A DNA stretch of 13,355 bases from a virus. Of the stretch, positions 1-13,355 are shown piece by piece. The translations under genes and the position numbers were made by a program. Location: UHGV virus genome UHGV-1987395; one strand, given 5' to 3'. A model generated the notes under the pieces. It was not told the DNA's origin, did not search any database, and saw only the letters and a list, made by a program, of their open reading frames with translations. Numbering within the stretch: position 1 is the stretch's first letter; each line of letters opens with the position of its first letter.

Positions 1-1
1 A

Positions 2-346
2 GATGAGCACGGTTATCCGATTCTGACAAGTGATGAGATGAACGCCAAATACAAAGGGATTCAGGCAACATTTAAGGATCGGAAGAGCATTAAACTCTCT
101 GAATTGCGAGATGCATTTTACGGGCCGGAGGTGATGGATAAAATTAAAGGCACCGTTGAGGGTAGAATCTGGAAAGAAGATGATTATTGGCATTTAACAG
201 AACAGGCCCTTAAGGTGGCTCAACATGTAGCTAAAAGAGGTAAAACAATTATCATCGATTATATTAGTCATGGCTATGATGCCCCGAAAGAAAGATTGTG
301 GAACAACTGCAAGCTTGTAAAAGGCGAATTAACCATTACAAAATAA
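2..346 (+). CDS. hypothetical protein, 5'-truncated at window edge
   Basis: Frame is open from position 2 to the TAA at 344-346; the first in-window ATG is at 38. No family recognised. Confidence 0.4.
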   Translation, partial: DEHGYPILTSDEMNAKYKGIQATFKDRKSIKLSELRDAFYGPEVMDKIKGTVEGRIWKEDDYWHLTEQALKVAQHVAKRGKTIIIDYISHGYDAPKERLWNNCKLVKGELTITK

Positions 347-386
347 ACATTCTTATTTTTTTACAGTATTCTAAAGGAAATTTAAA

Positions 387-533
387 ATGTATGGCGATTT
401 TGATTATTACCTGGAAAAGGAAAAATATTTTGAAGATGAACTATCACAACATTTTTCATATTGGGAAGAATATTGTGGTTGGTTAGCTGAAGATCCAGCA
501 GATGAAGAAAATGATTCTGACATCCCTTATTAA
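387..533 (+). CDS. small acidic hypothetical protein (48 aa)
   Basis: ATG at 387 preceded by AGGAAA 6 nt upstream; translation MYGDFDYYLEKEKYFEDELSQHFSYWEEYCGWLAEDPADEENDSDIPY is very D/E-rich. Below the 60-aa cut-off of the ORF track; preferred over the overlapping 298..486 ORF, which has no RBS. Confidence 0.35.
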   Translation: MYGDFDYYLEKEKYFEDELSQHFSYWEEYCGWLAEDPADEENDSDIPY

Positions 534-631
534 TTAATATCCCCTGTTATCCCCAAACAAACTAAATAAATAAACTAAGCACTAGAACTAGATTGATTGC
601 CCTGATCTTTTAAACGTTCGGAGAATTAATC

Positions 632-1117
632 ATGTTCAAATCTGATCTTTCTGATTCCCAATTTGAAAAACTGGTAGCACTGCAGAAATATCTCCCCAGT
701 GATGATCAACCAACACGACAGGCTAAACACTTATTAGTCGAGGGCTTTACCCCTGAATTCGTGGCGGAATATACAGGCGTTAAACTTGAGAAAGTCCAAA
801 AACTATATAATGAGTCCTGGAATCCACGGTGTCGAGTTCCCCTCAGTGTCTACAACGAAATAGATAGAGATAGAAATGTCTTCGAAGATCGCCGCCGCAA
901 ATCTCTTTTAATGTGGAATTGTGGGATGAATATTGAAGAGATAGCAAAAGAATTAAAAGTAACCTGCTTTCATGTCTGGGGCTTGTTGAGTGAAATCCTG
1001 CCACGTAAGGAGCTTAATCAACGTTTGCCTAAGCCCGGTAGTCGTGCTTATCGCGAATTTATATTCATCTACCGCCGCCATAGCAATAAAGTCCGGAAAG
1101 CAATGCAGCGCAAATAG
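632..1117 (+). CDS. putative HTH transcriptional activator (Mor/C-like or sigma region-4-like)
   Basis: GGAG 8 nt upstream of ATG; segment RRKSLLMWNCGMNIEEIAKELKVTCFHVWGLLSEI resembles, from memory, the C-terminal HTH of Mu Mor/C-family activators; basic C-terminus. Confidence 0.4.
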   Translation: MFKSDLSDSQFEKLVALQKYLPSDDQPTRQAKHLLVEGFTPEFVAEYTGVKLEKVQKLYNESWNPRCRVPLSVYNEIDRDRNVFEDRRRKSLLMWNCGMNIEEIAKELKVTCFHVWGLLSEILPRKELNQRLPKPGSRAYREFIFIYRRHSNKVRKAMQRK

Positions 1118-1205
1118 CTTATAGCCTTCACATATGCCGCAAGTTATTGATTCTGCCGTCCGGTAAATATGCCGGATGGCTCATATAAATTTTAAGGAAT
1201 TCCAA

Positions 1206-1649
1206 ATGTCTCAAATCGCTAAATTATTATCCCAGGTTATCAAAGCTATCGACGCTGAAGATTCAAAAGTTCGCCAGGATCTTTTAGATGGCAAGTTTAC
1301 CAACACCCTGGCATTTACCCGTGACAAAGAGCACTTCTTAAAACACAGACACCACGCTTTTGCTGAATGCAAGTCCGCTAATGGTGATGTTTTCTATGTC
1401 GATTTGGTGGTTATGGCATGTAGGCTGTGGATGATTCAGGACCTTATGCGCCAACACGGTGATGATCCTCTTATCAGCATGTGGAACAGCGCCCAGGATG
1501 GCTTTGTGATTGCTGCCTTATCCAAATCAATGATTGAGGCAGAAGGGGCAAGCCTTCAGAACATGGCAGATCTCTTTGAAATAAGCGTAGGAATGATGCA
1601 GACCATGCTCCAAGCTGTCAAACCTCTCAAACTGGTTAATCTTGATTAA
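1206..1649 (+). CDS. hypothetical protein
   Basis: ORF 1176..1649 in the track; ATG at 1206 has AAGGA 8 nt upstream, whereas ATG at 1176 has no clear SD. No family recognised. Confidence 0.45.
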   Translation: MSQIAKLLSQVIKAIDAEDSKVRQDLLDGKFTNTLAFTRDKEHFLKHRHHAFAECKSANGDVFYVDLVVMACRLWMIQDLMRQHGDDPLISMWNSAQDGFVIAALSKSMIEAEGASLQNMADLFEISVGMMQTMLQAVKPLKLVNLD

Positions 1650-1703
1650 GATATTGATAAATAAGCACTCCCCATTTTTTTGGGGGTGCATCAATGAGAG
1701 GAT

Positions 1704-2093
1704 ATGCCTATGAATATTGAAGAAATGATAGTTGAATTCGAAGAGGGTGATTTCCTGGAAGAAGGGGAGTTTAAATACTCCCGTTTTAAACAGGCGTTAT
1801 TTAGCAGCGATGATAAACCCCACGTTAGTGATCTTAATGATGATGATTTATGTCGCCTGGTGTGCACCCGCTTATATGAAGATGGAAAGTATACAGGCCA
1901 AAACTTTCCAAATCTCTATTTCAAAGCACAAACATTTGAGGAAGGGCAAAGAGTGAAAAACCTGGTCGATCAAATGCTGTCAGCCGGATATTTGCATAAA
2001 GAATTATTAAATCCTAAAGCTGAAAGCAAGCGCCATTATATTTTTGTGTGGTCTGTGGGGGATAAGTGCCCACTGAAGCGTAAAGGTAAATGA
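1704..2093 (+). CDS. hypothetical acidic protein; possible tail assembly chaperone
   Basis: GAGAGGA SD upstream of ATG; acidic N-terminus; lies two genes upstream of the tape measure gene, the usual position of chaperones. Call is positional only. Confidence 0.4.
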   Translation: MPMNIEEMIVEFEEGDFLEEGEFKYSRFKQALFSSDDKPHVSDLNDDDLCRLVCTRLYEDGKYTGQNFPNLYFKAQTFEEGQRVKNLVDQMLSAGYLHKELLNPKAESKRHYIFVWSVGDKCPLKRKGK

Positions 2094-2094
2094 T

Positions 2095-2280
2095 ATGAAT
2101 ACCTACGAAAAGATTTATCAAAAATTAAAAAGTGATAACAATGCTCCCGTCATCAAGGGCGGGGCTTCTTCCTCTGGTGACCTCTCAATCGAAGAGCTTG
2201 CGGAGAAATATAATATTGATAAAGAGGCCCTGAAAAGGGCTATTTCATTATCAAAATCTTTAAGACAGGGCGAGGTGTAA
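2095..2280 (+). CDS. hypothetical small protein (61 aa)
   Basis: ATG 1 nt after the stop of the upstream ORF (TGAtATG), suggesting translational coupling; ends 3 nt before the tape measure start. Confidence 0.35.
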   Translation: MNTYEKIYQKLKSDNNAPVIKGGASSSGDLSIEELAEKYNIDKEALKRAISLSKSLRQGEV

Positions 2281-2283
2281 GAG

Positions 2284-4404
2284 ATGGCAATGAAGGAAGT
2301 AGCCAAGCTAACAAACGTTATTTACTGGGATTCTGATAAATCCTCCTGGCGAAAAGAAGTTAAACGGCTTGAGGATTATAAAAAATCCTGGAAGAAAGCT
2401 ACCGACGATATAGCTAAAGCGGATTTTAAATCGAATCAGGCTGTGCTCAGAACACAAAGAACACGCGCTAAGGTGGAAGAGCAGATTGCCAGAGCTCAGA
2501 GGAAACAACAGGAAGCACAGAAGAAACAACGTGCTCAGGCTGTCAGCCGTCTGACCGGGGGCAATAATCCGGAGCTCTCCTCTATGCGCAAGTTCTATCA
2601 GCAGCAAGCCAGAGAGGCCGCCAGACAACAAAAACTGTTAGATCGTAGTGTTGGAGATGTTCAGCACAGAAAAGCACGTGTAGGGGCCAACAGTGCACGA
2701 ATCAGCAGTATGTTTGATGGCTCCCTGGTTGCTCAGTTCCAAAGCAGAATCCAGAGAGTTAATGCTGATTATGCTAAAGGGGCTATCAACCTGCAGACCT
2801 ATAATCAGAGGATGGCCCGACTCAGATCTGAAATGAAGATGGCAACAGCTGAAGCCGGAAAATTCCAGAGCAGACTAGATAAACTGGCATCAGGTGCCAG
2901 CAAGGTGCATGACAACCTGGGCAAAATCAACTCCACGCTGGGCAAGATAGCCATTGGCCTTACTGCCGCTGGCTGGGGTGTTCAGCGTGCTGTTAGTGGT
3001 GCTATGGGTAGCCTTGCAGATCGCAACAGTGCCTACTTCGGTTTGATGGCACAGAACAAGGATGATAAAGCCAAGACTGATCAGCAGATGGCTTTTATCA
3101 AGAACACAGCCTACACCTATGGGATGGATGAGCGGGAGATGCAAGGGGGCTACATGCGCTTTGCTGCAGCTACCCCCACCATGAAGGAATCTGATAAGCA
3201 GGCTCTCTTTGAGGCTATGGCTATTAAAGGCCGCTCAGTGGGTGCTACTGGCGAGCAACAGAACAGGGCGCTTGTTGCGGTCCAACAAATGGCTTCAAAG
3301 GGAAAAGTTATGGCGGAAGAGCTGCGGGGCCAACTGTCAGAAGCCTTTGCAGGCTCACAACAGGACTTCCAACAGGCCGCTATTGATGCCGGAATCATCA
3401 AAAATACCCAGGAATTCGATAAAGCCCTTAAAGATGGCAAAATCACCCTGGACAAACTTCTTCCCTCTCTGGTGAAAATCTGGGGTGCAGCAAAAGAAAC
3501 TAAAGCTTTTGCTGAATCCATGAAACAGCCAGAAGTAGCAATGCAGCGCATGAAAAACAGCTTTAACGAGCTGGCGATTCAGTTTATGGGTGTTGTGGAT
3601 CCTGCAGATGGCGTTATTAGCTTATCTGAATCTCTAATCTCCATCTTCGAAGACCTCACCACTGATATGGACGGCAGCGGGAGCGCGGCAAAACAGTTTG
3701 GTGAGGCAGTCGGTGCTGCCATGCGGGAGATCATGTATTGGGTAGGCTTCGCTAAGGGATATATTGAGGTCAAGGCTAAAGAGTTCGGCATGACCGGATC
3801 AGAGGTTGGCGAGCTTATCGGGAAACTGGTAGTCGGCTTAGCTGGTCTGAAAGTTATTACCACACTGCTTTCCCCTCTGACCGGATTTGTTTCACTTGTC
3901 ACTCAGCTGATAGCCTTGTTAGGTAAAATCCCTGGTATGAGCAAGCTTCTGGCTTCTGCCTCAGGTGGAACGGCAACAGGAGCAGCGGTCATCAGTGCAG
4001 GATCTAACGCTGAAAGAAGCTTCATTGATGGCAAGACGCAGGAAATGAGTAAGGAGAACTCAAAACAGGGTGCTTTGTTTGAGCTGGGAAGATTTGTCAG
4101 CAATGCTGGCGCACTGTTCACACCTGGCGGCGATACTGGTCCTTTGTTCGATCAGGTCAGAGGCTGGTTTAATAAAGGGCCAACATTGACAGTAGACACT
4201 GGCATCAGACCAACACCGACGGGTGGCATGGCTATCCAGAATGGTGGATATCAACCAGTCCAAGTAAATGTAGCCCCACAAGGTGAGATTTCCGGCAAAT
4301 GGGAGATAACCATCGATGAGGGGGGAATTGCCAGGGTAATTCAGAAGGAAGTCAGCGATCAGTTGGATTGGAAAGCCACACAGGAATCTAACCAGCTTTT
4401 CTAA
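2284..4404 (+). CDS. phage tail tape measure protein
   Basis: 706 aa; N-terminal Q/R/K/A-rich predicted coiled coil; central region (NKDDKAKTDQQMAFIKNTAYTYGMDEREMQGGYMRFAAATPTMKESDKQALFEAMAIKGRSVGATGEQQNRALVAVQQMASKG...) resembles the conserved tape-measure core domain; Gly-rich hydrophobic segment near the C-terminus. Confidence 0.7.
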   Translation: MAMKEVAKLTNVIYWDSDKSSWRKEVKRLEDYKKSWKKATDDIAKADFKSNQAVLRTQRTRAKVEEQIARAQRKQQEAQKKQRAQAVSRLTGGNNPELSSMRKFYQQQAREAARQQKLLDRSVGDVQHRKARVGANSARISSMFDGSLVAQFQSRIQRVNADYAKGAINLQTYNQRMARLRSEMKMATAEAGKFQSRLDKLASGASKVHDNLGKINSTLGKIAIGLTAAGWGVQRAVSGAMGSLADRNSAYFGLMAQNKDDKAKTDQQMAFIKNTAYTYGMDEREMQGGYMRFAAATPTMKESDKQALFEAMAIKGRSVGATGEQQNRALVAVQQMASKGKVMAEELRGQLSEAFAGSQQDFQQAAIDAGIIKNTQEFDKALKDGKITLDKLLPSLVKIWGAAKETKAFAESMKQPEVAMQRMKNSFNELAIQFMGVVDPADGVISLSESLISIFEDLTTDMDGSGSAAKQFGEAVGAAMREIMYWVGFAKGYIEVKAKEFGMTGSEVGELIGKLVVGLAGLKVITTLLSPLTGFVSLVTQLIALLGKIPGMSKLLASASGGTATGAAVISAGSNAERSFIDGKTQEMSKENSKQGALFELGRFVSNAGALFTPGGDTGPLFDQVRGWFNKGPTLTVDTGIRPTPTGGMAIQNGGYQPVQVNVAPQGEISGKWEITIDEGGIARVIQKEVSDQLDWKATQESNQLF

Positions 4405-4504
4405 TGTCCACTCTGTGGATTTGAGTTCTACTCAAACCTGCATAGCAGGCACTGATATTGTGATCAAAATCAATAAGTTAGCCTGACCGGGTAAACTCCA
4501 GGCA

Positions 4505-4537
4505 AGAAAAAAGCCCCTAAGTGTTAACAAAGGGGCT
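4505..4537 (-). terminator. candidate intrinsic terminator, minus strand
   Basis: 7-bp stem AGCCCCT (4512-4518) / AGGGGCT (4531-4537) with a 12-nt loop, followed on the minus strand by TTTTTT (plus A-run 4505-4511). Confidence 0.45.
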
Positions 4538-4957
4538 CTTCTCCGGTATCCTTTTGATGCGGGGCGAACCTGCTAACAAAAATCAACCTCTCGCGAGACT
4601 AATGTTAGCAGGTTGCCGGAAGGTAAGTCAACTCCGGTCTATAAACCTTAAAGCGACTATAAAATCGCCCCGCCAATTGTGATGATCCGACCTTTGAGGC
4701 GGGTCCGGTGCCCAGGGGGGTGCAGTGATGCACAAACCAGGCAACGATAAACAGGCTAACAGTGATAGCGGCGCTCAATCAGCGCACTAAATCCTAACCA
4801 GTCCGGGAAAGAGGCTGGCTCTATCGACCGCTCATGCACGGGACAATGCATACCTGATAAAGGATTCTCACAAGGGACCAATCGCGAGAAAAGAAGAGGA
4901 AAGGGGCTGATTTGTGGTGTATCACTACGGCCTCAAAAGACCTTCTATTGTCTTTTT

Positions 4958-5416
4958 TCAACCTCTCCCCACATTTGACCAGTATTTGATTGCACCGATC
5001 AAATCATCATAGTGGCGCATTGCATCATTGAAGCCTTTATAGCTTGCCCATTGTGGGGAAACCTTGTTATTGCTGAATTGCCCACTAATCAGGATAGTCT
5101 CCAGAATGTCGGCGTATCGCTTGCCAATTCGCTTTCTGACGGCCTCAGAGCTTCCACCCTTTACGATTGCATTAATCAGGGCTTTTGTGTGTCTCAGGCT
5201 CTCATAGAGCATTGCAGCGTGGGCAGATTCCATAAAGGAGCGCTTAGGCAGATCACCCCACCCCTCAGAGTGGATAGCTGCCAGTGTGGCGTAATTCAGG
5301 CCGCTATAGTGCTTTCCGTCATCCCAGCCAACCGCTACACCTTCCATCTGTGAGAGCTCTTTATGCAGCTTATCCATCATGCGCTTGTCTATGGTGCAAC
5401 GGACTTTCGGACTCAT
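4958..5416 (-). CDS. putative virion morphogenesis / head-tail joining protein
   Basis: 152 aa; ATGA start-stop overlap with the upstream gene; segment LAAIHSEGWGDLPKRSFMESA resembles, from memory, the motif of HK97 gp10-like head-tail joining proteins. Weak. Confidence 0.35.
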   Translation of the reverse strand: MSPKVRCTIDKRMMDKLHKELSQMEGVAVGWDDGKHYSGLNYATLAAIHSEGWGDLPKRSFMESAHAAMLYESLRHTKALINAIVKGGSSEAVRKRIGKRYADILETILISGQFSNNKVSPQWASYKGFNDAMRHYDDLIGAIKYWSNVGRG

Positions 5417-6216
5417 TTGTTGATCTCCGTGATGTCATCGAGCAACATGTTGGCCTTATCAATCATCGTTTCGTGGAACTCATTCGACACAACAGACTTA
5501 TCACCTGCGGCAATCTTTCCCGCTGCCTCTCCCTGTGCATATTCCCCGCGATGCTTAGCCCTGGTAGATTTCGTAGCAGCGTTGCCAGCGTTGCTACCCT
5601 CTTTAGCACTGTTAACAGCACCCTTTTGCTGTGTTTTATTCACCTTCTTACTGTTAGTGAAAACTCCGGCATTTTCGACCATCTTCACCTTGAAGGTGCG
5701 GAATTCTTCAAAGGTGCAATCAATAGTGATGCAGTCACCAGAGGAAGAGCTACGCTTAACTTCACATTTCGTCATGATGAAGTTCTCAAGGAGTCCGGCA
5801 TCTTCACTCACCAGGCTGACCAGCTGGCGCTTGTCTCTCATTTCCATAAGTGCCTGAACAGCGGCAGCAGGGCGCATAGATTCACGGGGATTATCTGGAT
5901 CAGTGTTCCGGTCGATGTAGTTCTCTTTCCGGATGATATAAGGGGAAGAGGTAATAATACCCGTAAAGCTGACAGATTTATCTTTAATGACGGCATGGTC
6001 TGACATGGTGGTGCCATCCTCGACCGCATAGCTCGATTTCTCAACAGGGAACGAATAGCTGACATCAGAGATAGAGTCAAAGAAGATAGCCACATTATCG
6101 GTATAGTTGAAGCCATCCATTATATTTTTGTTTTGTGAATATCCCCCACACATAACAGTGAATGCAGGAGATCTCGACTCAGCTTGTTTTGCAGCTGTCA
6201 GAGCATCACTAGCCAT
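5413..6216 (-). CDS. hypothetical protein, probable virion protein by context
   Basis: ORF 5413..6225 in the track; ATG at 6216 has GGAGG 10 nt upstream, while the ATG at 6225 sits 1 nt from the SD. In the capsid operon; no family recognised. Confidence 0.45.
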   Translation of the reverse strand: MASDALTAAKQAESRSPAFTVMCGGYSQNKNIMDGFNYTDNVAIFFDSISDVSYSFPVEKSSYAVEDGTTMSDHAVIKDKSVSFTGIITSSPYIIRKENYIDRNTDPDNPRESMRPAAAVQALMEMRDKRQLVSLVSEDAGLLENFIMTKCEVKRSSSSGDCITIDCTFEEFRTFKVKMVENAGVFTNSKKVNKTQQKGAVNSAKEGSNAGNAATKSTRAKHRGEYAQGEAAGKIAAGDKSVVSNEFHETMIDKANMLLDDITEINK

Positions 6217-6321
6217 ATTAAACATGCCTCCAAAATGAATCTTTTCGTTGCCCTGCTTAAAATCTGCAGAAAATACAGGGCAGTTATTCGTTAGAATCGC
6301 TTATAGCTCTTCCCGAGAGCG

Positions 6322-6573
6322 TTATTTTGCAAAACGATTATGGGCATTCAGGGCTTTTTTGCGGTCCTGGGCTTGTTTGCGTGCAATAAAATGTTCGAAA
6401 GTCTCGGCCCAGGTGCATTTATTATATTCACGGTATTTATGCATAGCCTGGCGGCTAACGTCATAGCAGGCGGCAAATGTGGAGATACGCAGGAATTCCG
6501 GCAGATCCTCGTCATCGATATGGATAATATCAAAAGGCACGTCGTCACGGTCGCCGTATAAAACAATTTTCAT
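6322..6573 (-). CDS. hypothetical small protein (83 aa)
   Basis: ATG at 6573 with GAGGTG 6 nt upstream; the 6582 start in the track is GTG. Lies just downstream of the post-capsid terminator hairpin. Confidence 0.4.
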   Translation of the reverse strand: MKIVLYGDRDDVPFDIIHIDDEDLPEFLRISTFAACYDVSRQAMHKYREYNKCTWAETFEHFIARKQAQDRKKALNAHNRFAK

Positions 6574-6605
6574 AAAATACACCTCAAAAACTTAAGACGG
6601 GGATA

Positions 6606-6670
6606 ACAAAAAAGGGAAGAGGGAAAGACCTATCCCCGATCTCTCACCTCTTCCCTTTGCTTTTATTTGG
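6606..6670. terminator. bidirectional intrinsic terminator/attenuator between capsid gene and downstream gene
   Basis: 9-bp stem GGGAAGAGG (6614-6622) / CCTCTTCCC (6647-6655); flanked by an A-run 6608-6613 (a T-run on the minus strand) and a T-rich tract 6656-6668 on the plus strand. Confidence 0.55.
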
Positions 6671-6686
6671 CCTTCGAAGAAGGACC

Positions 6687-7730
6687 TTATTTAGCCTTGG
6701 CTTTTGCCAGAGCAGCGGCGGCGGAGTTTTTAACACTCACTTTAACCACAACTTCGGGCATCATGTTCATGAAAGCATAAGAGGATTCAACGAAGATTTC
6801 TCGTTTGCCTCTGGACTCTTCCATATACATGAAAGCTTCACGTGCAGCGCCGTTTGCAAGCTTCAGGTTGCGAGCGCAAGGGCCGAAAAATTGAGTATAA
6901 ACGCCCACCATATCGCCTAACGCATGCGGCTGGAACTGTGGGACCAGATAAGCAGTATTCTCTGGCAGACTATCCATTTGCACCACACGCAGAGCTAAGC
7001 CCGGAATGCGGAAGGTCGGGAAGCCCGGCAGAATATCCTCAGGGAACATCAGACCTTTGTCGGTAATATTCTGATTGCCGAACAACAGCACTTTACGGAG
7101 CAGTTCATCAGTCTGAATAGCGGCGAACACCTCAGCACGGCAGAACAGGGTGAAACCACGCAGAGCGCGAACGACACCACGCTGTTTAACCTTGCTCAGT
7201 GCAACCAGGTCCTGCAGTTGTTTGAGAATATCTTGAGCTAGATCCATTTCAGAGGTGGACTGTTCCACGCCCAGCAGTTCGCACACATTCAGCTCTTTAC
7301 CCTTGGTGAGGATAATTTTGTTCTCAAAGAGAGCAAGCTGGCGTGCTTCTTCGTGGGTCTGGCGTAAGCCTTCGCCCAGTTGAATAACACGACGAGCGGT
7401 TACAGACTCTAAATTCTCTTCGGAATCTTTGCCAGGAACACGAATACCCTGCCAGTCAGAAGGATAAATAGCACTTGATGCGGCAGTGAACGCCATATCA
7501 CCCGTGCCCGTTTCACGCTCATCTGCGGTAATGGTCGCCATCTGTTCACCGTAGCGCGGATACTGACCGAAAGCGGTTTGTTTCACCTGGCGAACTTTGT
7601 CATATTCAAATTTAAAGGTATTGCACAGAGCAGTAGTGTTGAAGATATCCATTGCTGAAATAATCTGGTTATCCAGCGGGATGTCTTTAATCAAGCCACA
7701 CAGATCGCGGACTTCGAATTCTTTTTTCAT
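6687..7730 (-). CDS. phage major capsid protein (E-family-like)
   Basis: 347 aa from ATG 7730 with AAGGAGG 6 nt upstream (the 7736 start in the track is TTG); size and position directly after a decoration-like gene match the usual decoration + E-family capsid pairing; Ala/Lys-rich C-terminal tail. Confidence 0.6.
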   Translation of the reverse strand: MKKEFEVRDLCGLIKDIPLDNQIISAMDIFNTTALCNTFKFEYDKVRQVKQTAFGQYPRYGEQMATITADERETGTGDMAFTAASSAIYPSDWQGIRVPGKDSEENLESVTARRVIQLGEGLRQTHEEARQLALFENKIILTKGKELNVCELLGVEQSTSEMDLAQDILKQLQDLVALSKVKQRGVVRALRGFTLFCRAEVFAAIQTDELLRKVLLFGNQNITDKGLMFPEDILPGFPTFRIPGLALRVVQMDSLPENTAYLVPQFQPHALGDMVGVYTQFFGPCARNLKLANGAAREAFMYMEESRGKREIFVESSYAFMNMMPEVVVKVSVKNSAAAALAKAKAK

Positions 7731-7741
7731 CTCCAACCTCC

Positions 7742-8077
7742 TTATTGTGCAATTCGCAAATCGCCATTGCTGGCAGCGATAACAGCGGCTAAGCCTTCTT
7801 TATCCACGTAGGCCGGATTGATGTAGCAACCTTTGTTGGCAACAACGATAAAAGCATCACCAACCTCAGCACGTTCTACAACCAGCAGCGGAGTTTTACC
7901 GGTGTGCGTTGCTTTAACGAAGGTCTCAACCTCGCCAGCCTCAGTCACCACAACAACAGTGCCAGCCGGAATCTCAGCCTTAACTTTGTTTTTAACTTCA
8001 ACGTCGCGAATACTAAATTGCTCATCTGCGGCGTATGAAATGATGTGTCCGCGTGTGCGGATAGTCATATCTCTCAT
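7742..8077 (-). CDS. putative head decoration protein (DUF2190-like)
   Basis: 111 aa; AGGTGA 4 nt upstream of ATG; Val/Gly/Ala-rich beta-type sequence; sits directly upstream of the capsid gene, with its stop overlapping the capsid SD. Confidence 0.5.
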   Translation of the reverse strand: MRDMTIRTRGHIISYAADEQFSIRDVEVKNKVKAEIPAGTVVVVTEAGEVETFVKATHTGKTPLLVVERAEVGDAFIVVANKGCYINPAYVDKEGLAAVIAASNGDLRIAQ

Positions 8078-8567
8078 TTGATCACCTGCGATTTAAATTA
8101 ACTCCCCTCAAAGAGTTCCGGTATAACCTCTCAAACCACGACAGGCTCGGGCCGAAAAGTTATGCCGGAAATCTAAAGGGAAATTGATACAAGGAGAGGG
8201 AGATAGCCCCGCACCGTAGCCAAGCGGGGGCTATTCCACATGGGGAAACCGACAACAGTCGGATGATAGTTCACAGTATGGTTACGGTTACTAGAGAGCA
8301 CTATCACGAAAGGCACTCCCCCGAATCAGTTCAGGCTGCGGTCACATCAGCGGGGAAATACCTTTCGGGATAGCTACCCACACAGAAAACCCGCAAAAGA
8401 AAACTGTGTGGATAACTAGCCCAATAGGAGAATTAATCGACCACTCAACGATGATCAGGGTAGTGTTATTTATAAGGCGGCACCGCTACCTGGTCGCCTT
8501 TACTTTGGAGGAAAATACGGCAAATCAAGATCTTCTCAAATGATATTGATTCCATACTATACTGTAT

Positions 8568-8596
8568 ATTATATCAGTATTTACTCACATTGTCAA
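8568..8596 (-). promoter_or_regulatory. consensus sigma70 promoter reading leftward toward the capsid operon
   Basis: On the minus strand: TTGACA (plus 8596-8591), 17-nt spacer, TATAAT (plus 8573-8568). Perfect match at both hexamers with optimal spacing. Confidence 0.6.
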
Positions 8597-8750
8597 CACC
8601 TTGATTATATAAATTCTAATAATTAGCGTAGTAACGGTATTTTCAGACCTCTATCAATCCCATCAATACGTCACCCCCACCCTTTAGATGCATACATCCG
8701 ACCTACTTTGTAGGCTTGGCGTACTGCCAAGGTCGCAGCTATGCGACTCC

Positions 8751-8783
8751 TATCTATCACCACTTTATAAAGCTTGATAGATA
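8751..8783. promoter_or_regulatory. dyad-symmetric operator-like site
   Basis: TATCTATCA (8751-8759) and TGATAGATA (8775-8783) are perfect inverted repeats, concentric with an inner perfect palindrome CTTTATAAAG (8763-8772); overlaps a candidate -35 TTGATA at 8774-8779. Confidence 0.4.
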
Positions 8784-8926
8784 TCTTTTGATCAATATCA
8801 ATGTTTTCCAGAGATTTACCCGGCTATAGTTCGAATCAAGGAAGGGGAGCATTGATAGAGACACCCAAAGGGGTGACTGAAAGTCACCTGGCATAGCCAG
8901 TGAAAGCACCCAACCGAACAAACAAA

Positions 8927-8944
8927 TCAACTTCTCGCAAAAGG
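8927..8944 (+). promoter_or_regulatory. conserved 5'-UTR motif, copy 1
   Basis: TCAACTTCTCGCAAAAGG ends 8 nt before ATG 8953; near-identical to the copy at 9446-9464. Confidence 0.4.
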
Positions 8945-8952
8945 TGATAGTT

Positions 8953-9075
8953 ATGGGTATCAAGAACAGTGCCAGCGCATGGCAAAAGGCCAGGTTTCAT
9001 CACCCACACATGGTCAAGGCAATTGAGGTGGTTGGAGTTTTAGCCCTGATGTTAGCTCTGTGTGTGGAGGTGTGA
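8953..9075 (+). CDS. possible small membrane peptide (40 aa)
   Basis: AAGGTGA SD; translation MGIKNSASAWQKARFHHPHMVKAIEVVGVLALMLALCVEV has a C-terminal hydrophobic helix; preceded by the conserved TCAACTTCTCGCAAA motif. Below the track cut-off. Confidence 0.25.
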   Translation: MGIKNSASAWQKARFHHPHMVKAIEVVGVLALMLALCVEV

Positions 9076-9076
9076 G

Positions 9077-9157
9077 ATGGGTAAAGGAGGCAAAGAATTT
9101 TTAATAGGTCTGGCAGTCTTAGATTTTGTATTAATCATCATTGAGCGGAGTTTATGA
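9077..9157 (+). CDS. possible small membrane peptide (26 aa)
   Basis: GGAGGTG SD 4 nt upstream; translation MGKGGKEFLIGLAVLDFVLIIIERSL; its stop overlaps the next start as ATGA. Confidence 0.2.
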   Translation: MGKGGKEFLIGLAVLDFVLIIIERSL

Positions 9158-9414
9158 CGGGAACTAAAGATATTAAGAGACTGAGGGAAGAGCTGATAGC
9201 TGAAATTAAAGCTAAGGCAAAGCAAATGGAGATAGCCGCACAAATGGATGTAGCGGAACAGATGTACAAGATGGTTGAGGAGGGAACGCCACGACAGGTT
9301 ATAGCAAAAACCTTCGGTGTGGGGATCGCCACCGTGCACAGAAGGCTGAAAGCCTATGCCGACTACCACAATATCGAGAGAAAGGAGGATGGGAGATTTA
9401 AGAAGAATAAATAG
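9154..9414 (+). CDS. small DNA-binding protein with resolvase/invertase-type HTH
   Basis: 86 aa; charged helical N-terminus; C-terminal GTPRQVIAKTFGVGIATVHRRLK resembles, from memory, the Hin/Gin C-terminal HTH (GHPRQQLAIIFGIGVSTLYRY); no recombinase catalytic domain. Confidence 0.5.
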   Translation: MTGTKDIKRLREELIAEIKAKAKQMEIAAQMDVAEQMYKMVEEGTPRQVIAKTFGVGIATVHRRLKAYADYHNIERKEDGRFKKNK

Positions 9415-9445
9415 TGTGAACAGTCCAATAGGTTATTAACTAAAT

Positions 9446-9464
9446 TCAACTTCTCGCAAAGGGG
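9446..9464 (+). promoter_or_regulatory. conserved 5'-UTR motif, copy 2
   Basis: TCAACTTCTCGCAAAGGGG ends 7 nt before ATG 9472; same motif as 8927-8944. Confidence 0.4.
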
Positions 9465-9471
9465 TACCACT

Positions 9472-10059
9472 ATGAACATTAAAACTATCATTGCAGCCAT
9501 CACCATTGCCTTTAGTGCCAACACTGCAGCTATTGATGTTAATTTATTTCAGAAGATGACTTGCGAAGATAAATTAGTTGCCATGGATAAGGGGCTAGAA
9601 GCCACGCATAATGGGGAACAGTTTCATTTCTCCTTGAAGAATCTTATCTTGCCCCTGGATTCTGCCGCACAGGTATATGCAACATTGGGTAAATTTGAGA
9701 AGCCGGAAATTGACCTGCAGGGCGTGAGAGCGAAGATCACCAAAAGAAATGAAAGCATTTGTGATATAGCGGTTACGGCCCTTATGACAGATGATGAAAA
9801 AACGATTATAGCTACATGCAAAGATAGCAACGACAACGAACGATTCTTTAAGATCACCCACAACAGGCCCGTTTCTTTCTACTCTAATGCCACAATGGGC
9901 GCGGGTATGCAGTGGCTGAAGAGAGCTAAAGTAACTGAGGTTAATGCTGATGACGATTTATCCTATGAATACGGTTTTATTTCCAATTATATGGCGTGGC
10001 ACCTGAAAAAATGCGGCATCAATGGTCAGGCATACGACAATGGATTTTGGTTTTTCTAA
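9472..10059 (+). CDS. secreted/periplasmic protein of unknown function
   Basis: N-terminal signal peptide MNIKTIIAAITIAFSANTAA with an AxA-like cleavage site; AGGGG SD; followed by an intrinsic terminator at 10081-10106; ends in aromatic FWFF. Confidence 0.55.
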   Translation: MNIKTIIAAITIAFSANTAAIDVNLFQKMTCEDKLVAMDKGLEATHNGEQFHFSLKNLILPLDSAAQVYATLGKFEKPEIDLQGVRAKITKRNESICDIAVTALMTDDEKTIIATCKDSNDNERFFKITHNRPVSFYSNATMGAGMQWLKRAKVTEVNADDDLSYEYGFISNYMAWHLKKCGINGQAYDNGFWFF

Positions 10060-10080
10060 CCTATTAAGTTAATCCCACCT

Positions 10081-10106
10081 GGGGGCCATCACGGCCCCTT
10101 TTTATT
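10081..10106 (+). terminator. intrinsic terminator after the secreted-protein gene
   Basis: GGGGCC (10082-10087), loop ATCAC, GGCCCC (10093-10098), then TTTTTATTT. Confidence 0.65.
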
Positions 10107-10108
10107 TA

Positions 10109-10164
10109 TCCCCTATTTAACCCCTATTTAATGGGTATTTAATGCCTATTTATTGATTTAATGG
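10109..10164. repeat. five tandem copies of an 11-bp unit (consensus about CCCTATTTAA)
   Basis: TCCCCTATTTAA / CCCCTATTTAA / TGGGTATTTAA / TGCCTATTTAT / TGATTTAATGG in direct succession immediately after the terminator; 11-bp period is about one helical turn. Confidence 0.55.
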
Positions 10165-11566
10165 TTTTGGGCATTGTTGACAGTGTAAGAGAGAGGATGT
10201 AACCCTTTTTTGTAATACTAATAAAATCAATAGCTTAGCTCAATTGGCCTTTTCTCTGTTTTTGTCAAATTTAACATACCCTAAAAAACTGCAAAATCTG
10301 GCTGCAAGATTATCTGCAGCTGGATTTCTTACACCTCATTTTGTGGTATCACCCTGACTAGTTTGTGCATAAAATGAACAGTTTTTAACATTTCCTCTTC
10401 ACCTGGTAACCACACAAAAAGCTAAAAACGAGGCACAGATAATCTTAGAGGCCTGTTTTCTTGTTATCACTCTAGAAACGTCGTAGAGATGATTTTAATG
10501 AAAGATGACCTACCCTATTACACCCCTATTTTTTGTTATCACAATTGCATCCTGTGCGGTGTATGGCTATGTGCTGAAAGCGGTCTTATGTGTGGGTGTC
10601 AGAAATATCCATTAGCGGTATTAATACCCGTCGGAGATTCGTCTGAGGTGCCAGGCAGGCGCTCCCCCACCTCCCTTTTTTCTTCTAACAATTCTCAAAT
10701 ATCACACCACTGCCGACCACGTTACTACTCTGTTAATTCTTAAGCTTTGCTGTATGTTGTGCACATTATTTATTCAGGTGGCTGTACGTAAATTCTGTGC
10801 CCACTGATCATGATTTTTAAATCAGATTTTGTAGTTCGCTTTATTAGTGTAGATAAGATCTATTATGTTAAATGCAATTTTCCCAACCCTTCAAATCAAT
10901 GACTTACATGTAAGTATGCACTAACACCCCACACAGCACATTAGACGTATAGATGGCTATATCCCACATTTTTGATTGTTTTGTAGTCATTCCCCTGATC
11001 ATTTAACCAGTATAGTTTGTTCTCTGTAGACCACAAAATCGGAATTTACATCTGATTAACATAATCTGTTAGCATGATCACTATTACCCACACAACAATA
11101 ACCCCATGCAAGCCTCTTTAGGCAATTTATCGGCGTGTTGGTGTGAACAGTCTTTCATGTTCTTTATGAATTCATGACTGCAAGGAATGTATTCATTGTC
11201 CTGTGTGGGGGAAGGATGGACTGCCCCAGGGGCCATAGTTATGACACCCGGTCAACATAACTGTCGATAAAATCAACGGGTGTTGGTATGCATATTTCCC
11301 ACACATGAGAGAAAATCAAAGCAAAGAGAGAGGAGAGAGGTTTGCTAGTCAAAATAGGTCAATTGACGGCTAATACAGAGTAAAAAATCAGATGCAATCA
11401 CTCCCCCACCTGTTGGGATTTCCTACAACCCCTTTCAGTCATACTCAGGCACCACACCCCGGTAAATATTACCGCACTAACCTGTAAAGAATTTTCACAC
11501 CTGTGTGTTTATACAGTCATACTCTCCTGTTTTGCAGTCATTGCACCCATGATACACAGCCCCTAA

Positions 11567-11676
11567 CCTGTCAAAATATTTTACTACTTAGCCACTATAG
11601 CTATGCATACCTGTAAAATATTTTTACTACTACCTGTCAAAATACTTTACTACTACCTGTAAAAATATTTGACACT
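11567..11676. repeat. iteron-like 22-bp direct repeats (four copies, plus a degenerate copy at 11481-11500)
   Basis: CCTGTCAAAATATTTTACTACT (11567-11588), CCTGTAAAATATTTTTACTACT (11610-11631), CCTGTCAAAATACTTTACTACT (11633-11654), CCTGTAAAAATATTTGACACT (11656-11676); the last three are spaced 23 bp start to start. Confidence 0.6.
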
Positions 11677-11789
11677 AATAGATAAAGTAATAGACCACAC
11701 AAGATCCCCCCTAACCCCCCAGGGGGAATGGGGAGGGATCAGAGAGTGGGGAAGGTTTTCTAAGGGAAAAGCTTAACCCACAAATGAAA

Positions 11790-11818
11790 GCCTAAAGAGC
11801 ATTAGCGACTCTTTAGGC
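11790..11818. repeat. perfect 10-bp inverted repeat (hairpin or operator)
   Basis: GCCTAAAGAG (11790-11799), 9-nt spacer, CTCTTTAGGC (11809-11818); the half-site CTCTTTAGGCAAT recurs at 11114-11126. Confidence 0.5.
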
Positions 11819-12258
11819 AATATGTGTGTGGGTCACTCTGTGACTTTAGCTATACAGCTAAACCGACTACGTCGGCCTGTGTGTGGGGGTGACAATGTAT
11901 TCCATACATGACACGTCACCCAATTGTGTGTGGTCCGGCGAATGCGTCAGCATGAGGCCCACATGTGGACCGCTGCCGAAAGCTTGCCAGCGCCGGAAGG
12001 AGGCAGCAAAGAGTCTCCCGCGCGGGTGCACGCACACACATACAAAGGATACACTCATAAATCGAAAATAAGCCACCTAAATGGCCTTCTGGCTGCATTA
12101 ACTAGTGTGAGTAGTGCAATTGCATTACCTGACCTCTAAATCGCGTTAGAATCGATTTTAGAGCGCTTAAGGCAAAAAGTGCCCTCCCTTGTGGGCTTGC
12201 TTGTGTCTGCTGTGCAGGCTATGGCACCTATAGCACACCTAAATGATAATAATTCTCA

Positions 12259-12277
12259 TTGACAATTGGTTGACAAT
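12259..12277. promoter_or_regulatory. tandem TTGACAAT boxes (candidate operator or overlapping -35 elements)
   Basis: TTGACAAT at 12259-12266 and 12270-12277, 11 bp apart; a third copy at 12449-12456 forms the -35 of the downstream promoter. Confidence 0.4.
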
Positions 12278-12448
12278 GTGATAAGATTATAAATAGGGGG
12301 AGAAACAGATCCGGAGGTCAATGTGGAAATTACTGATGCAATAGCGATCATCAACCTGGCTGTACTGTGGTGCGGTGTTGCCTACATAGCCGGAGTAACT
12401 GCAATCGACAATCTTGAAGAAAAAATGATAGATAAATACAAAAAGATT

Positions 12449-12477
12449 GTTGACAATTTGACGAATGTCTGATAAAA
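12449..12477 (+). promoter_or_regulatory. sigma70-like promoter upstream of the 71-aa gene
   Basis: TTGACA (12449-12454), 17-nt spacer, TAAAAT (12472-12477). Confidence 0.5.
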
Positions 12478-12605
12478 TATAAAGCATAGGGTAATTCTCA
12501 TCATAGTGAATTTCCTTTAGTAGACTGGCGGGGGCTTGTCTTAAGTTCCCGTTTCTTTTTAATCATATATCGCACAGGTTAGTGAGCTAACAGGAGGCTT
12601 ATACT

Positions 12606-12821
12606 ATGGCTAAAACCGGACCGATCAGCCAGTTGGTAAACTGGACTACTGACGAAATCGTCGAGAACGTACTTAAGGGGAACTTCCGCAAAACTTCCGT
12701 TTATGCATTCATTCGTAAACATAAAGGAGAATATCCACACATTGAAGAAGCAATTTTAAAACTAAATTGCATTCGCCTTGAGCGGGAACTGGCTAAATAC
12801 ACCAATAACATTAATAAATAA
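12606..12821 (+). CDS. hypothetical small protein (71 aa), possible DNA-binding regulator
   Basis: AGGAGG 8 nt upstream of ATG; lies about 130 nt downstream of a consensus-like promoter; no family recognised. Confidence 0.45.
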   Translation: MAKTGPISQLVNWTTDEIVENVLKGNFRKTSVYAFIRKHKGEYPHIEEAILKLNCIRLERELAKYTNNINK

Positions 12822-12835
12822 TTATGGGGGAATTA

Positions 12836-13355
12836 TGGCAAGTAATTACGGGGAAAATTTTACTCCCCTTTTTAAACGTTTCATCAAATACATTTTTAAA
12901 AATCCGATTGCAAAAACTACAACCAATAAAGAAAGATTTCACTTAAACTTGTTGGAAATGACAATTTACGGTGAGATGGCAAGTTTTAATGCTGCAGGTT
13001 GTGAAATATTTATCTCTGAACAGAGATTAGCAGACGATTATGATGTTTCAAGACCGACAGTTATTAACTCGATTAAATCTCTAGAAAATGCCGGGCTTAT
13101 TTCAATAGTTAAAAGTAAAGGCAAATCTAATCATTACAAACTGCTAATTACCCCTGATCAGCTTGGCAAGATGTGTGATGAGCAGGGTATTAAAACCTCC
13201 GACAGTGTGGGATCTAGTAAAGAGGCCCCCGATAATCAACAGGAAGCCCCAAAACAAGCCACACAGCAAGCTAAAAAGGCCGAGGTGGTGCAATTGCCTA
13301 CCCAACCTAAGAACGAGCGCAGAGAGCGCTTTAGAGACGCTGGCAAACGTGAGAA
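12836..13355 (+). CDS. winged-HTH DNA-binding protein, putative replication initiator or regulator (3'-truncated)
   Basis: Open from ATG 12836 to the window end; segment ISEQRLADDYDVSRPTVINSIKSLENAGLISIVKSKGKSNHYKLL is a classic winged-HTH; followed by a low-complexity Q/K/A/E-rich linker. Confidence 0.5.

What the first reader, a model, noticed from the sequence alone, without database searches (positions are those of the whole stretch)
12255..12480. Three TTGACAAT boxes and a small hydrophobic ORF ahead of the replication/regulatory module
Two TTGACAAT boxes 11 bp apart (12259-12277) and a third forming the -35 of the 12449-12477 promoter look like repressor operators overlapping promoters. 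Between them a GTG-initiated 34-aa hydrophobic ORF (12323-12427, GGAGG 5 nt upstream) could be a small membrane peptide.
Basis: seen in the sequence. Interest (0 to 1): 0.4.

Follow-up and report, generated by a model that had tools for sequence, protein, structure and literature searches.

The report
Twin strong promoters flanking small membrane-protein gene
The three TTGACAAT boxes are mainly the RNA-polymerase recognition sites of two duplicated, near-perfect promoters that bracket a real 49-residue (not 34) membrane-protein gene and feed, through a terminator, the replication genes of a small E. coli plasmid that looks like a parasite of rV5-type phages.

Summary
The boxes are real and not chance. 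Exact TTGACAAT occurs four times in the window against 0.8 expected, and three same-strand copies within 200 bp appeared in 0 of 2000 shuffles.

Boxes 1 and 3 are the -35 hexamers of two paralogous, near-consensus sigma-70 promoters, each with a 17-bp spacer and a TGn extended -10:
- P1: 12259-12287
- P2: 12450-12478

The fourth copy (8596-8589, minus strand) is the -35 of a perfect consensus promoter, P3, facing the capsid genes. Annotated early promoters of phage rV5 have the same build.

The small ORF was misread. It is 49 aa (12323-12472), so box 3 and all of P2 lie in its last eight codons. It is a real gene: third-position variation dominates, GTG becomes ATG in one clade, and it has an N-terminal transmembrane helix. 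It has no known family.

P2 is followed by a 5' hairpin and a structurally conserved intrinsic terminator before the 71-aa gene and the O/DnaD-like Rep gene. The P1-ORF-P2 cassette stays about 90% identical where iterons, leader, the small protein and Rep have diverged. That argues against the 71-aa or Rep proteins binding the boxes.

An operator role is unproven. Only the second TTGACA hexamer in P1's spacer shows possible extra constraint (p = 0.055).

The parts
12224..12258 (+). Left edge of the conserved cassette: A/T-rich DNA upstream of P1 (ACCTATAGCACACCTAAATGATAATAATTCTCA)
   Evidence: The alignment of 33 distinct relatives is conserved from about 12225 and mosaic further left. The blastn match to clade B starts at 12224.
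12259..12266 (+). Box 1: the -35 hexamer TTGACA of promoter P1, plus AT
   Evidence: TTGACA, 17 bp, TAAGAT, 10/12 with TG. The hexamer is invariant in all lineages; the AT is not.
12270..12277 (+). Box 2: a second TTGACA hexamer inside P1's spacer, 11 bp after box 1. It has no usable -10 of its own
   Evidence: Kept at the same offset in 4 lineages (TTGACA, or TTGTCA in L007) while flanking spacer bases change. The nearest -10-like hexamer is only 12 bp away (read).
12279..12287 (+). TGa plus TAAGAT: the extended -10 of P1. The start site is inferred near 12294
   Evidence: invariant in all relatives.
12314..12318 (+). Shine-Dalgarno sequence GGAGG of the small ORF
   Evidence: conserved in most relatives. 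Clade B reads TGGAGG at this site, and L018 has TTGAGG.
12323..12472 (+). Gene for a 49-aa single-pass membrane protein (GTG start, TGA stop)
   Evidence: ORF list. Annotated in all relatives. Variable sites by codon position are 7:7:23, with 24 synonymous and 15 mostly conservative non-synonymous codon changes. The start is ATG in clade B. Kyte-Doolittle maximum is 2.18 over residues 7-25. No Pfam, PHROG, NCBIfam or PADLOC family.
12416..12449 (+). A-rich stretch upstream of P2 (…ATGATAGATAAATACAAAAAGATTG), inside codons 32-42. Probably an UP-like element
   Evidence: Almost no variation in any lineage, even at third codon positions. The UP-element reading is inference.
12450..12457 (+). Box 3: the -35 hexamer TTGACA of promoter P2, plus AT (codons V-D-N)
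   Evidence: TTGACA, 17 bp, TAAAAT, 11/12 with TG. Invariant in all relatives.
12458..12466 (+). Degenerate second box TTGACGAAT in P2's spacer
   Evidence: P1 and P2 are a 29-nt direct repeat, 72% identical. This pseudo-box is lost in L007.
12470..12478 (+). TGA (ORF stop codon and TGn) plus TAAAAT: the extended -10 of P2. The start site is inferred near 12485
   Evidence: It reads TATAAT in L012.
12488..12517 (+). 5' hairpin of the P2 transcript (AGGGUAAUUC…GAAUUUCCUU)
   Evidence: The fold of the 81-nt RNA has z = -2.98, with 1 of 200 shuffles folding as well. It appears in the consensus structure of 12 leaders. L042 carries a matching variant, AGGAAAAUUC/GAAUUUUCCU.
12527..12560 (+). Intrinsic terminator: a 12-bp hairpin followed by TTTCTTTTT, lying between P2 and the 71-aa gene
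   Evidence: Scan. The stem is kept through a paired deletion in L008 and L042 and a G-U to A-U change. Clade B has an unrelated hairpin plus T-run at the same place.
12606..12821 (+). Gene for a 71-aa helical protein of unknown function, first gene after the terminator
   Evidence: The AlphaFold model has pLDDT 88 and four helices. No informative fold match.
12835..13355 (+). 5' part of the 288-aa replication initiator (winged HTH, O/DnaD-like). It continues across the circle junction to window 1-346
   Evidence: Pfam HTH_11 and HTH_36. PHROG replication initiation, phrog_270 at 3.9e-12. Read-through across the junction.
11480..11677 (+). Five 23-nt iterons (ACCTGTCAAAATATTTTACTACT): the probable replication origin
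   Evidence: Iteron sequence differs between lineages.
8568..8596 (-). P3: the fourth TTGACAAT is the -35 of a 12/12 consensus promoter (TTGACAatgtgagtaaatacTGaTATAAT) facing the capsid operon
   Evidence: conserved in L001 and L002.

Best explanation
The region is a compact, conserved expression cassette (12224-12481) at the head of the replication module of a 13.3-kb circular E. coli plasmid.

It holds two paralogous, near-consensus sigma-70 promoters of the phage-early type: TTGACA, a 17-bp spacer, then TGa-TAAnAT.
- P1 (box 1 is its -35) transcribes a well-translated gene for a 49-aa single-pass membrane protein.
- P2 (box 3 is its -35) is written into the last eight codons of that gene, and the stop codon doubles as the TGn motif.

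Both transcripts run into a 5' hairpin and an intrinsic terminator at 12527-12560. Most P2 transcripts should therefore end as an RNA of about 75-80 nt. The 71-aa gene and the Rep gene, which have no strong promoter of their own, would be expressed by terminator read-through. In this reading the TTGACAAT boxes are chiefly RNA-polymerase recognition elements inherited by duplication.

Shown: the sequence anatomy, the conservation pattern, the coding signature and the terminator structure.
Inferred: the start sites, promoter activity, read-through dependence of the replication genes, membrane insertion of the peptide, and any regulation. The extra hexamer in P1's spacer (box 2) may be a site for a conserved regulator, but that is not established.
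For: Promoter matches of 10/12 and 11/12, each with TG.

P1 and P2 form a 29-nt repeat with 72% identity. Both continue into ATAGGG after the -10.

Across four lineages the -35, the TGA, the -10 and the 17-bp spacing are invariant. P2's spacer takes up to 6 changes, which alter the peptide's last residues.

A third promoter of the same build, 12/12, sits at 8596-8568 on the minus strand.

Of 15 annotated sigma-70 promoters in the first 100 kb of rV5, 9 begin TTGACAA. Examples are TTGACAATcagtatttgctaTGATAAAAT and TTGACAAAaataatgttaccTGATAAGAT.

The ORF is coding: variable sites by codon position 7:7:23, 24 synonymous against 15 non-synonymous changes, and GTG to ATG in clade B. It is annotated in every relative. 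The exact protein is listed in 1657 blocks of the assembly collection, almost all on contigs of 10-20 kb.

The terminator is found by scan, kept by paired changes, and replaced by an unrelated hairpin plus T-run in clade B.

The only + strand promoter-like match between the terminator and the 71-aa gene scores 8/12 with a 19-bp spacer.

The cassette is 89.6% identical to clade B while its flanks are unalignable.
Against: There are no transcription data. Start sites, promoter strength and terminator efficiency are all predictions.

Box 2 is more conserved than a neutral spacer position would suggest (1 of 18 against 8 of 24 changes, p = 0.055). A pure promoter reading does not explain this.

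Three consensus-strength promoters on a plasmid that carries capsid and tail genes would be costly if never repressed, so some regulator probably exists.

The near-absence of synonymous change in codons 32-45 could reflect something other than an UP-like element. One candidate is the 9/12 antisense promoter match at 12453-12425.
Confidence: 0.72

Rival explanations
1. The boxes are operators: a DNA-binding protein encoded by the element, the host or the helper phage binds the TTGACA(AT) repeats and represses P1, P2 and P3. The promoters would then be silent in the resting plasmid and fire on helper infection or a fall in copy number.
For: Box 2 is a TTGACA direct repeat exactly one helical turn (11 bp) from box 1. 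It has no promoter role of its own and is kept in four lineages.

All three strong promoters of the element share (A/G)TTGACAAT.

Consensus-strength promoters in front of structural genes call for repression (inference).

rV5 promoter P11 also has a second TTGAGA hexamer 10 bp after its -35.
Against: The 8-mer is not conserved as such in P1 of clade B or L012.

The second box lies 11 bp from the first in P1 but 8 bp in P2. It is lost from P2 in L007, and P3 has none.

No conserved dyad symmetry is present (read).

The named candidates diverge (38% and 42% identity, different iterons) while the boxes stay the same.

The 71-aa model gives no recognisable DNA-binding fold match.

The constraint on box 2 is only p = 0.055.
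Confidence: 0.22
2. The small ORF is the toxin of a type I toxin-antitoxin or post-segregational-killing module that stabilises a plasmid lacking partition genes. An antisense RNA from within the ORF, or fold-back pairing with the leader, keeps it silent.
For: It is a 49-aa hydrophobic peptide with one transmembrane helix and a charged tail, the same size class as Hok (the Hok comparison is from general knowledge).

None of the element's ORFs scanned against Pfam, PHROGs, NCBIfam or PADLOC matched a partition or toxin-antitoxin family.

A 9/12 antisense promoter match lies at 12453-12425, inside the stretch that is invariant even at synonymous sites.

The minimum-free-energy fold of the P1 transcript pairs the ORF's Shine-Dalgarno sequence with the UUUCCUU of the leader.
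Against: No similarity to any known toxin family.

No minus-strand terminator occurs within 330 nt of the antisense match.

The long-range fold is not better than shuffles (z = -1.39).

A short 5' UTR with an exposed strong Shine-Dalgarno sequence and a near-consensus promoter is atypical for type I toxins (general knowledge).
Confidence: 0.12
3. The boxes are partial iterons or Rep-binding sites, through which the initiator autoregulates its own operon as in pSC101, F or P1.
For: The window's iteron ACCTGTCAAAATATTTTACTACT contains TTGACA on its other strand. Autoregulation of rep through iteron-like repeats at the promoter is common (general knowledge).
Against: Iterons differ completely between lineages: ACCAGGGAAGAATTTACCGGGGTA, ACCCCGGAAGATTTTTCCGG…, ACCCCTGAAAATTTCTCACT. 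The boxes stay the same throughout. Rep is only 42% identical between clades.
Confidence: 0.03

Closest known systems
Strong sigma-70 'extended -10' early promoters of virulent coliphages, here the annotated promoters of rV5 (DQ832317)
   Same: TTGACA(A), a 17-bp spacer, TGn and TAnnAT. P74 and P75 of rV5 match P2 and P1 in every defined element.
   Different: The plasmid's P1 and P2 carry a second TTGAC(A/G) hexamer in the spacer. Only rV5 P11 has anything similar. There is no DNA homology beyond the promoter elements.
Tandem-promoter replication control of IncFII plasmid R1: PcopB, copB, PrepA, leader, then tap-repA (from general knowledge, not tested here)
   Same: An upstream promoter reads through a small gene into the rep operon. 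A second promoter lies at the end of that small gene. A leader separates it from rep.
   Different: In R1 the small gene encodes a DNA-binding repressor of the second promoter, and control is by antisense CopA RNA. Here the small gene encodes a membrane peptide, no convincing antisense promoter is seen, and an intrinsic terminator sits in the leader.
Satellite phage P4 immunity and replication leader: PLL and PLE, CI RNA, premature termination before the alpha gene (from general knowledge)
   Same: A satellite able to live as a plasmid. It has tandem promoters, a strong constitutive promoter whose transcripts mostly end early in a structured leader, and replication genes expressed by read-through.
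   Different: No sequence relation. P4 uses processed CI RNA pairing with seqA and seqC. A comparable pairing between leader and ribosome-binding site here is not consistent across lineages.
Small hydrophobic type I toxins and other phage or plasmid single-pass membrane peptides such as Hok, holin-like or exclusion peptides
   Same: About 50 aa, with one transmembrane helix and a short charged tail.
   Different: No sequence match to any family. There is no demonstrated antitoxin RNA.

Membership tests
Sigma-70 promoter with extended -10 | A -35 hexamer close to TTGACA and a -10 hexamer close to TATAAT, 16-18 bp apart | tested here: met
   P1 scores 10/12, P2 11/12 and P3 12/12, all with 17-bp spacers.
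Sigma-70 promoter with extended -10 | TG one base upstream of the -10 hexamer | tested here: met
   TGA precedes the -10 in P1, P2 and P3 and is invariant in relatives.
Sigma-70 promoter with extended -10 | Conservation pattern: hexamers and spacing fixed, spacer sequence free | tested here: met
   P2's spacer has 5-6 changes in L007 and L012. The only change outside the spacer makes the L012 -10 consensus (TATAAT). Spacing is 17 bp everywhere. P1's spacer is free except for the inner hexamer.
Sigma-70 promoter with extended -10 | A transcription start 6-8 nt after the -10, with activity in vivo or in vitro | not testable with these tools
   No transcriptome data are available. This needs 5'-end mapping or reporter fusions.
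Repressor operator overlapping a promoter | A repeated or symmetric recognition sequence conserved as such and shared by the regulated promoters | tested here: inconclusive
   TTGACA, 5 bp, TTGACA is kept in P1 (p = 0.055). The 8-mer is not conserved, the spacing differs in P2, P3 has no second box, and there is no dyad.
Repressor operator overlapping a promoter | Co-variation of operator and cognate regulator (the 71-aa protein or Rep) | tested here: not met
   The boxes are identical where the small protein is 38% identical and Rep 42% identical.
Repressor operator overlapping a promoter | Protein binding and repression | not testable with these tools
   Needs footprinting and reporter assays.
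Iteron or Rep autoregulatory site | Sequence matches the plasmid's own iterons and changes with them | tested here: not met
   Iterons differ between lineages while the boxes do not.
Protein-coding small ORF | A purifying-selection signature in the reading frame, with conserved start and stop | tested here: met
   Variable sites by codon position 7:7:23; 24 synonymous against 15 non-synonymous changes; start GTG or ATG; length 49 aa in 41 of 41 copies.
Protein-coding small ORF | Membrane insertion | tested here: inconclusive
   Hydropathy of 2.18 over residues 7-25, with four Lys only on the C-terminal side. This is a prediction only.
Type I toxin-antitoxin (hok/sok-like) | Homology to a known toxin family | tested here: not met
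   No hits in Pfam, NCBIfam, PADLOC or PHROGs. All homologues lie within this plasmid family.
Type I toxin-antitoxin (hok/sok-like) | A cis-encoded antisense RNA gene with its own promoter and terminator | tested here: inconclusive
   There is a 9/12 antisense promoter match at 12453-12425 but no nearby minus-strand terminator.
Intrinsic (Rho-independent) terminator / attenuator | A G+C-rich hairpin followed by a T-run, with the structure conserved | tested here: met
   Hairpin at 12527-12553 plus TTTCTTTTT. A paired deletion keeps the stem. Clade B has an unrelated hairpin plus T-run.
Intrinsic (Rho-independent) terminator / attenuator | A regulated alternative (anti-terminator) structure or antisense RNA | tested here: not met
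   No leader segment complements the 5' arm of the terminator (read). There is no strong antisense promoter in 12480-12620.

The most novel reading that the evidence does not exclude
The cassette could be the control point of an undescribed, widespread plasmid-borne satellite of virulent rV5-type (Vequintavirinae) phages. In this reading:
- its three promoters copy the helper's early-promoter design, so they respond to the helper's take-over of host RNA polymerase;
- the conserved extra hexamer in P1 is an operator for a conserved factor;
- the very strong P2 makes an abundant ~80-nt leader RNA that sets Rep expression or acts in trans;
- the invariant 49-aa membrane peptide is an effector of plasmid retention, exclusion or lysis timing.
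Probability: 0.15. Interest if true: 0.7.

Novelty: new variant of a known kind. Interest (0 to 1): 0.35.

Why it matters
Taken alone, the finding is mostly ordinary: good promoters, a terminator and a small gene. It matters for three reasons.

First, it corrects the map. The ORF is 49 aa, and a promoter is written into its 3' end.

Second, it defines a sharply bounded cassette (promoter, small gene, promoter) that stays constant while the replication specificity downstream is exchanged.

Third, it gives testable entry points into how a 13-kb plasmid controls its replication. This plasmid carries its own capsid gene and rV5-like tail genes, and it is seen in well over a thousand E. coli assemblies. 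I found no paper on this plasmid family, so its regulation is open ground.

Tried and rejected
- **Rfam.** No family matched at gathering scores over the whole window. Only sub-threshold chance matches appeared at relaxed E-values in 11400-12650. There are no tRNAs.
- **Small ORF homology.** Searches reached only this plasmid family, plus one fusion ORF in a recombinant phage contig.
- **Wider collections.**
  - Searching viral contigs with the 71-aa protein found nothing.
  - Pattern scans for TTGACA-N5-TTGACA-N3-TGATAAGAT found only unrelated chance or convergent sites. Two were in genomes and one in a viral contig with a similar tandem -35 promoter but no homology.
- **Leader pairing with the 71-aa gene's ribosome-binding site.** It is predicted in the window and in L006 and L007, but not in L002, L040, L042 or clade B, so I did not adopt it.
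- **Box 2 as a second -35.** Rejected, because the nearest -10-like hexamers are only 12-14 bp away.
- **Pho-box reading of the bottom strand** (TTGTCAAccaaTTGTCAA). This was recalled from memory. Any tandem -35 would resemble it, and nothing coding lies leftward, so I did not pursue it.
- **Sigma-54 reading of TGGCAC at 12222.** Rejected: the GC element is misplaced by 2 nt, and TGGCAC is absent from relatives.
- **Literature.** Six searches found no description of this plasmid family.

Full report
**Observation**

The three exact TTGACAAT copies lie at 12259, 12270 and 12450 on the + strand. A GGAGG sits 4 nt before a GTG at 12323.

The motif is over-represented and clustered. There are four exact copies on both strands against 0.79 expected. 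At least four arose in 13 of 2000 dinucleotide-preserving shuffles, and three same-strand copies within 200 bp arose in none.

The ORF was misread. In frame from 12323 the first stop is TGA at 12470-12472, giving 49 aa. The third box and its promoter therefore lie inside the ORF's last eight codons rather than after it.

**Setting**

The window is a complete circular replicon.
- The winged-helix ORF that starts at 12835 runs across the end of the window into 1-346, giving a 288-aa protein.
- That protein matches phage replication-initiator families of the O/DnaD-like type.
- Five 23-nt iterons lie at 11480-11677.

Close relatives are non-mobilizable E. coli plasmids of 13.2-13.7 kb, plus one 39.6-kb multimer.

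The element carries a major capsid gene and homologues of rV5 tail proteins: the tape measure at 26% identity, the neck protein at 45% and a baseplate-like protein at 49%.

A 65-nt stretch (11963-12027) is 83-87% identical to rV5-type phages. An rV5-like phage contig carries a 1.4-kb insert from such a plasmid, with its junction at window 12396 inside the small ORF. The element therefore looks like a plasmid-borne satellite of rV5-type phages. I found no paper describing it.

**What the boxes are**

Box 1 is followed after 17 bp by TAAGAT, and box 3 after 17 bp by TAAAAT. Each -10 is preceded by TGA. The matches to the sigma-70 consensus are 10/12 and 11/12.

The two promoters are a 29-nt direct repeat with 72% identity. 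With gaps they align as first box, second box, AATGT, TGA, -10, and both continue into ATAGGG. Compensating indels keep each spacer at 17 bp.

The fourth exact TTGACAAT, on the minus strand at 8596, heads a perfect promoter: TTGACAatgtgagtaaatacTGaTATAAT. It faces the capsid operon and is conserved in relatives.

The annotated sigma-70 promoters of rV5 have the same design. Nine of 15 begin TTGACAA. P74 (TTGACAAT…TGATAAAAT) and P75 (TTGACAAA…TGATAAGAT) match P2 and P1 element for element.

**Conservation of the boxes**

I compared 41 copies, 33 of them distinct, falling into about four lineages. The -35 hexamers, the TGA, the -10 hexamers and the 17-bp spacing never change. P2's spacer takes 5-6 substitutions in L007 and L012, and these alter the peptide's last residues.

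So boxes 1 and 3 are -35 elements.

Box 2 is different. It cannot act as a -35, because the nearest -10-like hexamer is 12 bp away. Yet its hexamer stays at the same 11-bp offset in all four lineages, changing at 1 of 18 site-lineages against 8 of 24 for the other free spacer positions (Fisher p = 0.055). That is a hint of an extra function, not proof. The equivalent pseudo-box in P2 (TTGACGAAT, 8-bp offset) is destroyed in L007, and P3 has none.

**Who could bind the boxes**

The winged-helix protein is the initiator. Its iterons differ completely between lineages while the boxes do not, so the boxes are not iteron-like sites.

Between clade A and clade B the small protein is 38% identical and Rep 42% identical. 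Leader and iterons are unalignable. Yet 12224-12481 is 89.6% identical. A regulator that diverged this much would not be expected to keep an identical operator.

The 71-aa protein models confidently as four helices but matches no DNA-binding fold. If the boxes are operators, the factor is something conserved: another element protein, a host protein or a helper protein.

**The small ORF**

It is annotated as a 49-aa hypothetical protein in every relative. The evidence that it is translated:
- Variable sites fall 7:7:23 by codon position.
- There are 24 distinct synonymous and 15 mostly conservative non-synonymous codon changes.
- The start codon is GTG in clade A and ATG in clade B.
- The length is always 49 aa.

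Residues 3-28 form a hydrophobic segment (19-residue Kyte-Doolittle maximum 2.18). The C-terminal 21 residues are charged, and all four lysines lie on that side, which suggests an N-out, C-in single-pass peptide.

It has no family in Pfam, PHROGs, NCBIfam or PADLOC. It has no relatives outside this plasmid family among 1.8-5.8 billion proteins. The exact sequence is listed in 1657 blocks of the assembly collection. Its function is unknown.

Codons 32-45 are almost invariant even at third positions. They encode the A-rich DNA just upstream of P2's -35 and the -35 itself. I read this as promoter (UP-like) constraint laid over the coding sequence.

**Downstream of P2**

The predicted P2 transcript begins near 12485. 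It forms a 5' hairpin (12488-12517) and then a 12-bp hairpin followed by TTTCTTTTT (12527-12560). The 81-nt RNA folds better than 199 of 200 shuffles.

Evidence that the terminator is real:
- The stem is kept through a paired deletion in L008 and L042.
- It is kept through a G-U to A-U change in L012 and L015.
- Clade B has an unrelated hairpin plus T-run at the same place.

Between the terminator and the 71-aa gene there are 45 nt and only an 8/12 promoter-like match with a 19-bp spacer. The 71-aa and Rep genes are therefore most simply expressed by read-through from P2 and P1.

I found no anti-terminator and no convincing antisense promoter. A predicted pairing of the leader with the 71-aa gene's ribosome-binding site is not consistent across lineages.

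**Mechanism proposed**

P1 makes the mRNA for the membrane peptide. P2, embedded in the end of that gene and probably the stronger of the two, makes mainly a short structured RNA. A fraction of both transcripts passes the terminator to express the 71-aa protein and Rep.

The cassette behaves as a portable unit. Its right edge (12481) coincides with P2's start site, so it supplies transcription to whichever replication module lies downstream.

The anatomy and its conservation are shown. Promoter activity, the need for read-through and any regulation are inferred.

**Comparison with known systems**

The promoters belong to the ordinary extended -10 sigma-70 class and resemble rV5 early promoters.

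The layout recalls two systems, both from general knowledge and neither showing sequence relation:
- Plasmid R1: promoter, small gene, second promoter, leader, rep.
- Satellite P4: a strong promoter, an early-terminating leader, then replication genes.

The differences here are that the small gene encodes a membrane peptide rather than a repressor, and that the leader holds a plain intrinsic terminator.

A type I toxin reading of the peptide is possible but unsupported.

**Verdict**

The feature is a new variant of familiar parts. Interest in the finding itself is modest, and higher for the element that carries it.

Noticed in passing
whole window (1-13355): The window is a complete circular plasmid. 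It has an iteron origin, an O/DnaD-like Rep, its own major capsid gene (6687-7736, minus strand) and homologues of three rV5 tail proteins. These are the tape measure (2284-4404, 26% identity), the neck protein (4958-5416, 45%) and a baseplate-like protein (5413-6225, 49%). None of the ORFs scanned matched an integrase, terminase or portal. It looks like an undescribed plasmid-borne satellite of Vequintavirinae. The exact 49-aa protein is listed in 1657 assembly blocks.
   Followed up: partly
window 11963-12027: A 65-nt stretch is 83-87% identical to DNA inside the small ORF 78 of rV5 (record positions 64822-64886), in the promoter-rich region a few kb from the terminase gene. It is found in 119 rV5-like phage records. 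It could be a shared packaging or regulatory site. The fold is not better than shuffles.
   Followed up: partly
L010 10173-11583 (and L011): An rV5-like phage contig is 98% identical to phage nom. It carries a 1.4-kb insert 96% identical to plasmid pE275a_13, covering P2, the leader, the small genes and the 5' part of rep. This replaces phage early-region DNA and creates an 82-aa fusion ORF. The junction corresponds to window 12396, and the same junction appears in a second sample.
   Followed up: partly
window, chiefly 10400-12040 and 8377-9010: The motif TGTGTGGG is strongly over-represented. There are 37 hits at up to one mismatch against 9 expected, and 0 of 200 shuffles reached 37. It is concentrated in non-coding stretches and also occurs in relatives, for example TTACATGTGTGGGGT in L013.
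   Followed up: no
window 8080-8596 (minus strand): The perfect consensus promoter P3 is followed by about 480 nt with no ORF before the 111-aa gene and the capsid gene. This leader contains TTATCCACA, a DnaA-box-like 9-mer, near 8414-8406.
   Followed up: no
window 11480-11677; L012, L013, L015, L042: Iterons keep a 23-bp period and an internal palindrome, but their sequence is swapped between lineages along with Rep. This indicates several replication specificities behind one conserved P1-ORF-P2 cassette.
   Followed up: partly
L004, L006-L009 and others, about 150 bp upstream of P1: Many relatives carry a further promoter-like site with the same box, ATTGACAATcttattgcataaatgcTATAAG. It is absent from this window.
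   Followed up: no
L047 8669-8697 (minus strand): An unrelated 34.5-kb viral contig has a promoter with the same tandem layout, TTGACAaaatgTTGACAccgTGATAAGAT. There is no homology downstream.
   Followed up: no
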